Part shown: in pieces, positions 19,953 through 60,163 of the stretch | How the letters are laid out: each line of letters starts with the position of its first letter | Numbering within the stretch: the first letter of the stretch is position 1 | Source of the DNA: Octopus sinensis | Taxonomy: Eukaryota | Direction of reading: 5' to 3' | Assembly (NCBI RefSeq): GCF_006345805.1 | Contig: NW_021833424.1 | Location: 43,080 to 107,079 of the forward strand | Length of the DNA: 64,000 bases | Notes under the pieces: generated by a model | What the model saw: the letters and a program-made list of their open reading frames with translations, nothing else | Database searches by the model: none | Told to the model about the DNA's origin: nothing | Translations under genes and position numbers: made by a program

Positions 19953-20148
19953 AGCGCCATGATTGACCGCTGGCCACAAAAGCCTTTTTTTATTCTCCCT
20001 CTGTTTATTTTCTCGTTCTCCTTTCTGTTGAAGAGCATAGGCTCGAAACGTAAAAGACTTTCTCACCTTCCCTAGCGTTAAACTAATATACTTGTTTGTT
20101 GTTTACACGACTGTCTTCGTCTTTTGTATTTTTGTAAATTCCAATTAT
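19953..20148 (+). mobile_element. Short (about 200 bp) hammerhead-bearing element, Penelope pLTR-like (HHR motif 20021-20056)
   Basis: CTTT-CTGTTGA-AGAGC-ATAG-GCTC-GAAA-CG-TA-AAAG; homologous to 59953-60163 and 25030-25205; TA flanks. Confidence 0.65.
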
Positions 20149-25083: not shown

Positions 25084-25112
25084 GCTCAGGAAAGGAAAGA
25101 AAGGAAAGAGGA

Positions 25113-25145
25113 TTTCACGTTTCGAGCGGAGCTCTTCATCAGAAA
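25113..25145 (-). ncRNA. Ultra-minimal hammerhead motif, probably inactive (GUG at cleavage site)
   Basis: TTT-CTGATGA-AGAGC-TCC-GCTC-GAAA-CG-TG-AAA. Confidence 0.65.
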
Positions 25146-25233
25146 CATAAAAAAGTCCAAAGAAGAGAAGACAAAGAAAAATTGCCAACGATACACACGC
25201 GGTCAAATGATAATATATATAAACATATATATA

Positions 25234-58803: not shown

Positions 58804-59029
58804 CAGTTGTTGGACACCGAAATAATTGTTTACCTTTGTTTGAAGTTGTTGCCATCATGTTGTTATTCTTGTCCCTCTCTCGTTTTCAAGTTTGCACACA
58901 CGCAGGACACACGCACCACACACGCAGCACACACGCAGCACACACGCATACACACACATATTTATGTAACTGGATACATAGATTGATAGATAGACAGATA
59001 TATATATATATATATATATAATATATATA

Positions 59030-59069
<40 letters not shown>

Positions 59070-59280
59070 GTAGCAAAAAATTCAATAGAAATTTTTTTCG
59101 GCACCAGCGGTCCAGTGAGAAAGAGAAAATAGTCACAGACTATATATATATAATTTCAACAATATTAAGGAATGGCCCTGATAGGTCATTCGACTCACCA
59201 GAAAGAGCAGCCAAACTCAAACCGCTAAATAGTAGTAATTCAGAAATCAAAGGAAAATCAAAAACATTTACTCTAATCAT

Positions 59281-59386
59281 CCTTGGACAATGCCTTGTTT
59301 CGACGTACTTTTTGGCAAACCACCCTAATTAAATTAAATTTAATTTAATCAAGTCAATCTACCACTGGCTAGTCTCATCGGCAAGG
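59281..59386 (-). ncRNA. Type I hammerhead motif (left arm)
   Basis: CCTTG-CCGATGA-GAC...GTC-GAAA-CAAGGCATTG-TC-CAAGG. Confidence 0.75.
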
Positions 59387-59666
59387 AGGCCAGGAGGAAT
59401 AAATATTCCACGAGGCAGCCGCATCGATGCCTCGGGAATATATACTTTCTCACTGGACCGCTGGTGACGAAAAAAATTTCTATTGAATGTTTTGCTACCC
59501 TTATATTGATTAATTAATGATTTTTTGACTAATTCTGAAATTAAATCAGCAGTTTATATTTGCTGCTGATAAGTTGGCGCGATTACGGTGGATTTTGAAA
59601 ATTTAGAGTATATATTTCCGAGGCATTGATGCTGTTGCCTCGTGGAATATTTATTCCTCCTGGCCT

Positions 59667-59770
59667 CCTTGCCGATGAGACGAGCCATTGGTAGATTGAC
59701 TTGATTAAATTTAATTTAATTTAATTAGGCTGGTTTGCCAAAAAGTACGTCGAAACAATGCATTGTCAGG
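59667..59770 (+). ncRNA. Type I hammerhead motif (right arm)
   Basis: CCTTG-CCGATGA-GACG...CGTC-GAAA-CAATGCATTG-TC-AGG. Confidence 0.75.
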
Positions 59771-59888
59771 ATGATTAGGGTAAATGTTTTTGATTTTCCT
59801 TTGATTTCTGAATTACTACTATTAGCGGTTTGAGTTTGCTGCTTTTCTGGTCAGTCGAATGACCTATCAGGGCCATTCCTTAATATTG

Positions 59889-59926
<38 letters not shown>

Positions 59927-59952
59927 GAATATATATATATATATAATATATA

Positions 59953-60163
59953 TCGCCATGTGTTGATTCGCTAGCTCTGCACGCATTTTTTTCTCTCCTT
60001 GTTTCTTTCTGTGTTTCTTTTCTGTGTACTTTCTGTTGAAGAGCGTAGGCTCGAAACGTAAAAGACTTGTTTATTTATATTCCTGAGCGCCATACTAATA
60101 CAATTGTTTGTTTGTATTCCACCTGCCTTCGTCGTTTTGTTTATTTTTCATAAAGCTCCCCGT
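59953..60163 (+). mobile_element. Short hammerhead-bearing element (HHR motif 60029-60064)
   Basis: CTTT-CTGTTGA-AGAGC-GTAG-GCTC-GAAA-CG-TA-AAAG, inside (TA)n; same family as 19953-20148. Confidence 0.65.

What the first reader, a model, noticed from the sequence alone, without database searches (positions are those of the whole stretch)
59063..59893. Divergent pair of hammerheads with a non-canonical CCGAUGA core and long stem II in a 290-bp-arm inverted repeat
Seen: both arms carry stem I CCTTG/CAAGG (one C missing on the right), the core CCGATGA instead of CTGATGA, stem II closed by GAC(G)/(C)GTC around an AT-rich insert of about 65 nt, a 10-nt stem III (perfect palindrome on the right) and a GUC site. 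A third piece (59063-59122) supplies the 5' part missing from the right arm, as if a plus copy were split by a minus copy. Inference: transcription in either direction gives one sense ribozyme plus a long dsRNA, a possible self-cleavage versus silencing switch. The U4C change is shared by both arms, so it predates the duplication.
Basis: partly seen in the sequence, partly recalled or inferred. Interest (0 to 1): 0.75.

Follow-up and report, generated by a model that had tools for sequence, protein, structure and literature searches.

The report
Penelope-type retrozyme with U4C hammerhead
This mirror-image repeat is one worn copy of a common non-coding jumping element whose hammerhead (self-cutting RNA) motif has a C in place of the usual U in nearly all copies; the mirror shape likely arises during insertion, and RNA read through it is predicted to zip into a hairpin rather than cut, so a switch is unlikely.

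Summary
The two hammerhead motifs and the inverted repeat are real. The locus is one copy of a dispersed, non-coding ~487-nt tandem-unit family with the hallmarks of Penelope-like element (PLE) insertions: 5' truncation, head-to-head inversion, a one-sided 3' tail and (TA)n targets. CCGAUGA is the family state (65 exact matches against 1 for CUGAUGA). Three pairs in stems I and III changed on both sides among C4 copies. Sister families keep U4, and an unrelated minimal hammerhead family here is also mostly C4 (7,180 against 3,596). The 'third piece' is the 3' tail of the left arm, not a split copy. The inversion is a family habit: in 87 of 89 classifiable inverted copies one arm ends at each of two fixed sites, which fits priming of both target strands. 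The right ribozyme lacks 2 nt at the cut site, and read-through RNA is predicted to bury the core in a ~290-bp duplex, so the switch is not supported. Whether C4 cores cut is untested; the genomic footprint is inconclusive. The scan has noted U4C cores and twin-primed PLE palindromes in other genomes.

The parts
58999..59062 (.). (TA)n tract, left target side
   Evidence: sequence; 3' ends of the family abut (TA)n in 95 of 128 arms ending at the two main sites
59062..59446 (-). Left arm: 5'-truncated unit running through the unit junction into the 3' tail; ends at the distal (tail) site, about 229 nt after the cut site
   Evidence: L001 1123-1507, minus strand, 91% to a natural monomer
59062..59140 (-).
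59280..59387 (-). Left type I hammerhead: 6-bp stem I, core CCGAUGA (59381-59375), long stem II, 4-bp stem III, predicted cut between 59286 and 59285
   Evidence: hammerhead fold 3.8 kcal/mol above the minimum; z = -3.77
59445..59446 (.). Head-to-head junction of the two 5' ends, 2-nt overlap
59445..59911 (+). Right arm: 5'-truncated unit ending at the proximal site, about 150 nt after the cut site
   Evidence: L001 1506-1972, 92%
59447..59606 (+). Spacer: the part of the right arm with no mirror partner next to the junction (59445-59506 mirrors the tail)
59666..59771 (+). Right type I hammerhead, core 59672-59678, C17 at 59767, 2-nt deletion in the 3' strand of stem I; likely inactive
59894..59958 (.). 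(TA)n tract, right target side; its first bases match the unit's own TA run

Best explanation
The locus is a decayed copy of a dispersed non-coding ~487-nt tandem-unit element with a C4-core type I hammerhead, likely a non-autonomous Penelope-like retroelement (non-LTR retrozyme), and its mirror shape was likely made at insertion when both strands of a cut (TA)n target primed reverse transcription. Shown: family membership, C4 as family state, covariation of the stems, two fixed 3' end sites, one arm ending at each site, (TA)n flanks. Inferred: a PLE protein supplied in trans, likely a Hydra-clade dimer, starts one cDNA at the proximal site and one at the tail site on mostly uncut multimeric or circular RNA; the two incomplete cDNAs are joined head to head through a few bases of microhomology. 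The C4 ribozyme is inferred to be a slow cutter that the element tolerates because most copying runs through the cut site. This copy is predicted to have no working switch: read-through RNA forms a long duplex.
For: Family: 40 of 40 scored candidates match, 87-94% over most of the 454-nt query apart from the window's own copy. Core: 65 CCG against 1 CTG exact matches; C4 in 80 of 80 ribozyme copies read in subfamily A1, most of them picked by the C4 pattern or by likeness to this copy; U4 in 87 of 88 copies of sister families A2, A3 and B, one unreadable. Covariation among C4 copies: changes on both sides at three pairs (14, 3 and 28 of 64 rows), covariation score 0.121 against 0.095 shuffled, 0 of 500. 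Architecture: 94 head-to-head junctions and no tail-to-tail junction in 176 family-by-locus counts; of 89 with both ends classifiable, 87 have one end at each site; 38 of 39 in A1. Tail arm reaches further 5' in 38 pairs, the other in 37, the same point in 8 of 83 (permutation p = 0.001); 42 of 83 junctions overlap by 1-5 nt. ORF-bearing PLEs in this genome (RT, C-terminal GIY-YIG-like part, DKT and CxCX5C motifs as in Hydra) have hammerheads with a 47-60-nt stem II region, palindromic stem III, (TA)n ends, and one short and one long end in all 9 distinct inverted pairs read. A purified PLE protein cuts and extends both strands and starts at two internal RNA sites that bound the tail; ribozyme cutting was not needed for insertion (PMC11167929). 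Read-through folds.
Against: No ORF-bearing element with a terminal repeat homologous to this unit was found among 42 PLE loci; the one Hydra terminal repeat tested scored no better than shuffles, so the helper is not identified. No target-site duplication can be read in (TA)n. In PMC11167929 the start site did not differ between the two strands, so a strict one-site-per-strand rule is not shown biochemically. In 73 of 83 pairs the arms overlap in sequence, unlike textbook L1 twin priming (recalled), which needs strand displacement or two RNAs. Fold-back followed by uneven central deletion could give the same symmetry. Excess of 5' ends at the cut site is clear in U4 families (3.2- and 3.3-fold) but not in C4 copies (0.94-fold in the unbiased sample; 1.8-fold, p = 0.09, in the extended one). 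Two of the four covariation-type measures did not beat the shuffles (pairs with two-sided change 319 of 500; further pair types 495 of 500), and shared ancestry inflates the others.
Confidence: 0.75

Rival explanations
1. Same element, but the inversion comes from self-priming (fold-back), possibly on an antisense template, followed by endonuclease resolution that leaves the tail on one side and by later loss at the palindrome centre.
For: Proposed for PLE inversions in PMC3846280 (passages); the tail is ascribed to endonuclease resolution in PMC8557442. 8 of 83 pairs share the same 5' point. Arms are closer to each other than the median other copy in 17 of 18 pairs, level in one. Two loci (L043, L064) share one junction at a natural quasi-palindrome.
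Against: Pure fold-back makes one arm a subset of the other; here neither arm contains the other, and either arm can be the longer (38 against 37). It needs a second step to explain 87 of 89 unlike ends.
Confidence: 0.2
2. The C4 core is dead; the family spread as a passenger with a ribozyme-shaped relic, and the stems persist for protein binding or by template switching.
For: No significant pile-up of 5' ends at the cut site in C4 copies (2 stops in 25 arrivals, unbiased sample). U4C considerably lowers activity in vitro (PMC3088659). Cleavage was dispensable for insertion in vitro (PMC11167929). The stem III change lies in a palindrome that template switching can repair.
Against: Two independent two-sided changes in stem I, whose strands lie about 100 nt apart, among C4 lineages. 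The extended sample stops at the site as often as U4 families (8 of 42 against 21 of 132, p = 0.64). A U4C viroid stays infectious.
Confidence: 0.3
3. One reading: the locus is used in both directions and toggles between self-cleavage and double-stranded-RNA silencing.
For: A read-through RNA would give a 94%-matched duplex of about 300 bp. PLE copies give small RNAs in a rotifer (PMC3846280 passage). The left ribozyme can fold.
Against: The antisense arm always comes first; the duplex outweighs the ribozyme fold more than tenfold; the right ribozyme is damaged; inversions are a routine product of the family.
Confidence: 0.04
4. The inversion is an assembly artefact of an unplaced 107-kb contig.
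For: The contig is short and unplaced, no second copy of the flank was found, and reads were not checked.
Against: The arms differ by 6%, and the junction follows the same two-site rule as 86 other pairs, most on chromosome-scale contigs.
Confidence: 0.02

Closest known systems
Inverted insertions of endonuclease-positive PLEs (Adineta Pen2a, PMC3846280 passages; PMC8557442 passages and Fig. 2 legend)
   Same: 5'-truncated partial tandems, inverted 5'-truncated copy head to head, tail on one end only, microsatellite target, hammerhead in the repeat
   Different: No ORF; tail about 80-110 nt rather than 30-40 bp; the one-sided tail is counted here as a near-strict rule (87 of 89)
Non-LTR retrozymes of animals (PMC7229834 passages; bioRxiv 10.64898/2026.07.22.740005, part 1 of 5 and passages)
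   Same: Non-coding tandem units with one type I hammerhead each, length within the reported 51-972 bp, proposed PLE origin
   Different: C4 core falls outside the canonical CUGANGA core; 65-nt stem II extension; copies mostly under two units and often inverted; circular RNA not tested
Hydra-clade PLEs (PMC8557442 section 11)
   Same: (TA)n insertion and a hammerhead; an ORF-bearing family with DKT and CxCX5C motifs in this genome has the same long-stem-II ribozyme design and two-end rule
   Different: No sequence homology between its terminal repeat and this unit; it keeps U4
PLE hammerheads with palindromic helix III (PMC4209133, parts 1-2 of 4)
   Same: Type I, palindromic helix III, large helix II, pairs in opposite strands 100-700 bp apart already reported
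   Different: Stem III here has 4 pairs and a tetraloop, so a monomer fold is possible; the core variant reported there is U3-A8, not C4
Natural U4C viroid hammerhead (PMC3088659, discussion passage and section 8)
   Same: Same core change, reported as slower in vitro yet sufficient in vivo
   Different: There a rare variant; here the fixed state of one mobile family and two-thirds of exact matches of another

Membership tests
Type I hammerhead ribozyme | Three helices around the core, open helix I | tested here: met
   Left arm and family copies; not met by the right arm's stem I
Type I hammerhead ribozyme | Canonical core CUGANGA, GAAA, NUH | tested here: not met
   C at position 4; GAAA and GUC intact. 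U4C is a known natural variant
Type I hammerhead ribozyme | Compensatory changes in the stems | tested here: met
   Three two-sided pairs among C4 copies; copies are related, so events are few
Type I hammerhead ribozyme | Self-cleavage at the NUH site | tested here: inconclusive
   Indirect only: 5'-end excess 0.94- to 1.8-fold in C4, 3.2- to 3.3-fold in U4 sisters; no assay possible
Type I hammerhead ribozyme | Loop I-loop II tertiary contact | not tested
   Helix I is open and stem II is long; not examined
Non-autonomous PLE / non-LTR retrozyme | Non-coding tandem unit with one hammerhead per unit | tested here: met
   Units of 467-501 nt, longest ATG frame 51-81 codons
Non-autonomous PLE / non-LTR retrozyme | 5' truncation, partial tandems, inverted 5' copy, one-sided tail | tested here: met
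Non-autonomous PLE / non-LTR retrozyme | Microsatellite target bias | tested here: met
   (TA)n after 95 of 128 A1 ends, 63 allowed ends in A2/A3 with 43 hits, 72 of 72 in B
Non-autonomous PLE / non-LTR retrozyme | Homology to the terminal repeat of an autonomous PLE | tested here: inconclusive
   None among 42 loci of one PLE family; other PLE families not searched
Non-autonomous PLE / non-LTR retrozyme | Circular monomeric RNA | not testable with these tools
   No raw RNA reads on offer
Autonomous EN+ PLE | ORF with RT and GIY-YIG domains between the repeats | tested here: not met
   No such ORF inside any of 71 loci scanned; long frames next to copies belong to other elements

The most novel reading that the evidence does not exclude
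C4-core hammerheads are a working, tuned-down class in mobile elements: they can be the majority state of large families (65 of 66 here; 7,180 of 10,776 exact matches in an unrelated family), stay under selection for the fold, and are missed by CUGANGA searches. The same families record an almost obligatory PLE insertion rule in which a protein dimer primes one target strand at each of two RNA sites, which would explain both the inverted repeat and the one-sided tail.
Probability: 0.4. Interest if true: 0.55.

Novelty: new variant of a known kind. Interest (0 to 1): 0.33.

Why it matters
The locus itself is an ordinary decayed insertion. The family offers two testable things. First, natural U4 and C4 sister ribozymes in nearly the same scaffold (80-83% alike) let one measure how little cleavage a retroelement can live with, and show that descriptor searches fixed on CUGANGA undercount genomic hammerheads. 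Second, the 87-of-89 end rule, shared with an ORF-bearing family, is a sharp prediction for the existing in vitro PLE system on how inverted repeats and tails form, which PMC8557442 lists as open.

Tried and rejected
Rfam scan of the window: no hammerhead family among the matches shown. Split-copy reading rejected on orientation. Search for the helper: the 554-aa frame inside L060 is an inserted RVT_1 LINE-type piece; L032's gap looks like a mariner-type insert (recalled likeness); the PLE frames beside L013 and L034 are separate insertions; a profile of five monomers hit only another non-coding relative (L205/L238) among 42 PLE loci. Pfam gave no family for three PLE fragments. No allelic or empty site found. 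Expression: no RNA holder listed; the junction was not checked on reads. My own hammerhead descriptor gave 4 hits in the window against 0-5 in ten shuffles, so it was used only to locate motifs. The tree (89 rows, flanks only, bootstrap not settled) puts U4 families A2/A3 on one branch; rooted on distant family B they nest inside C4 lineages, so the direction of the U/C change is not settled. The cut-site window (-3 to +14) was chosen after seeing the ends; arms with atypical 3' ends and 25 blast-picked B loci were dropped before the counts. Lunse et al. 2017 and Arkhipova et al. 2017 were not held and not seen; they, and the unread supplements of PMC4209133 and PMC8557442, may list C4 variants.

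Full report
Observation. The region holds two inverted arms, 59141-59446 and 59607-59909, 94% alike over 308 columns, around a 160-nt spacer and between two (TA)n tracts. Each arm carries a type I hammerhead motif with core CCGAUGA, a 73-nt stem II region, GAAA, a 4-pair stem III and a GUC triplet. The left motif has a 6-bp stem I and folds 3.8 kcal/mol above its minimum-energy state. The right motif lacks two bases directly after C17, so stem I cannot close on the core.

The family. The window lies on a 107-kb contig of a 2.72-Gb genome; size and microsatellite content look octopus-like to me, from recall and untested. A search with the right arm gave 2,007 candidates, and all 40 scored places matched. 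The copies define a tandem unit of about 487 nt without a long frame. A typical copy is a 5'-truncated unit or two followed by about 70 nt of the next unit and then (TA)n.

The core. Exact patterns found 65 places with CCGATGA and 1 with CTGATGA. All 80 ribozyme copies read in subfamily A1 have C4, though most were picked by that pattern or by likeness to this copy. Sister families A2 and A3 (79-83% alike) and B (66-68%) have U4 in 87 of 88 copies, one unreadable. Among 64 distinct C4 copies, 97.2% of cells pair, and three pairs changed on both sides: two in stem I (14 and 3 rows) and one in stem III (28 rows). Score and cell counts beat all 500 shuffles; the pair-count and pair-type measures did not, and relatedness inflates the test. 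The tree places these changes among C4 lineages under either root but does not settle whether U became C or C reverted. An unrelated minimal hammerhead family in the same genome has C4 in 7,180 and U4 in 3,596 exact matches. U4C is known from a viroid, slower in vitro yet infectious (PMC3088659, passages and section 8). Searches for 'hammerhead' with U4C, CCGANGA or CCGAUGA gave 1, 0 and 1 papers (the last seen as a listing only); two relevant papers of 2017 could not be read. The long stem II is not special: ORF-bearing PLEs here have 47-60-nt stem II regions with U4.

Does it cut? I counted where copies stop at their 5' end. In U4 families, ends pile up within -3 to +14 nt of the predicted cut: 12 stops in 51 arrivals for A2+A3 (3.2-fold, p = 0.001) and 9 in 81 for B (3.3-fold, p = 0.003). 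In C4 copies the unbiased sample gave 2 in 25 (0.94-fold) and an extended, left-truncated sample 8 in 42 (1.8-fold, p = 0.09), not different from the U4 fraction (p = 0.64). The window was chosen after seeing the data. The result is inconclusive for C4. In all families 76-92% of arrivals run through the site, so the template is inferred to be mostly uncut multimer or circle. This fits PMC11167929 (main text read), where cleavage was not needed for insertion.

The inversion. 3' ends fall at two sites, about 100-165 and 215-256 nt after the cut. Of 94 inversion junctions, all are head to head. In 89 both outer ends could be classed, and 87 have one end at each site (38 of 39 in A1, 30 of 30 in B, 19 of 20 in A2/A3). 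This locus follows the rule. Either arm can reach further 5' (38 against 37 of 83 pairs); 8 pairs stop at the same point, against 1.7 expected; 42 junctions overlap by 1-5 nt and this one by 2. An ORF-bearing family with DKT and CxCX5C motifs, as described for Hydra-clade PLEs (PMC8557442 section 11; atlas look-alikes with HTH_animal, RVT_1 and GIY-YIG on part of their members), shows one short and one long end in all 9 distinct inverted pairs read. The layout itself is in print: inverted 5'-truncated copy, tail on one end, (TA)n bias (PMC3846280 and PMC8557442 passages), and opposite-strand hammerhead pairs (PMC4209133). A purified PLE protein, predicted to be a dimer, cuts and extends both target strands and starts at two internal sites that bound the tail. 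I infer priming of both strands, one at each site, and joining of the two cDNAs. A search for 'Penelope-like' with 'twin priming' listed 3 papers, none on PLE mechanism by title or abstract start. The published alternative is self-priming on an antisense template; with later central deletion it is not excluded.

The switch. Because the arms diverge, a read-through RNA in either direction contains the antisense arm before the sense ribozyme. Both RNAs are predicted to form about 290 long-range pairs at about -510 to -530 kcal/mol with the core fully paired, against about -30 for the ribozyme fold. Only transcripts starting in the spacer would free the ribozymes, and only the left one is near intact. 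Double-stranded RNA from such a locus is plausible, but that holds for 41 of 89 family loci. Expression and the junction were not checked on reads.

Verdict. A real but ordinary decayed insertion of a non-autonomous PLE-type element. Identity about 0.9, insertion mechanism about 0.65, residual activity of the C4 core about 0.6, switch about 0.04. Earlier notes of this scan describe U4C cores in PLE stubs and Hydra elements and twin-primed palindromes in other genomes; I read them after my counts, they prompted the Hydra check, and they are not independent support. New variant of a known kind; interest 0.33.

Noticed in passing
G000 genome-wide; example L235: An unrelated minimal hammerhead family has C4 in 7,180 and U4 in 3,596 exact pattern matches. 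Its carrier element was not characterised.
   Followed up: partly
window 60029-60064 (+) and about 20021-20056 (+): Minimal hammerhead-like motif of another repeat with core CUGUUGA (U at position 6); related copies read CUGUGGA or CUGUAGA. The first sits just beyond the right (TA)n tract.
   Followed up: partly
window about 25110-25147 (-): Minimal hammerhead motif with canonical core CUGAUGA but a GUG triplet.
   Followed up: no
window from about 60382 (+): 5'-truncated LINE-type frame with a weak zf-RVT match (E = 0.0004, below cut-off), starting after a (TA)n tract.
   Followed up: partly
L072-L096, L157-L196: Young sister family B (copies mostly 96-99% alike, about 66-68% to family A, U4 core, GUA triplet) with arrays of up to about seven units and inversions at 30 of 41 loci.
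   Followed up: yes
L227-L237: Abundant ORF-bearing Hydra-like PLE family with asparagine-rich inserts and long-stem-II hammerheads about 1.2-1.5 kb past the long frame; L233 is a 3.9-kb-arm inversion, 99.9% identical.
   Followed up: partly
L205 2420-3330: A further non-coding relative with its own hammerhead sequence (core CUGAAGA) in the same head-to-head, one-sided-tail layout.
   Followed up: no
L043 4606 and L064 4526: Two loci with different flanks share the same inversion junction at a natural quasi-palindrome: recurrent joining or re-mobilisation of an inverted copy.
   Followed up: partly
G000:C5:52437773-52438369: Family B copy with three short repeats that each start just after the cut site, spaced 239 nt apart, as if a cut RNA was copied repeatedly (listing).
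   Followed up: no
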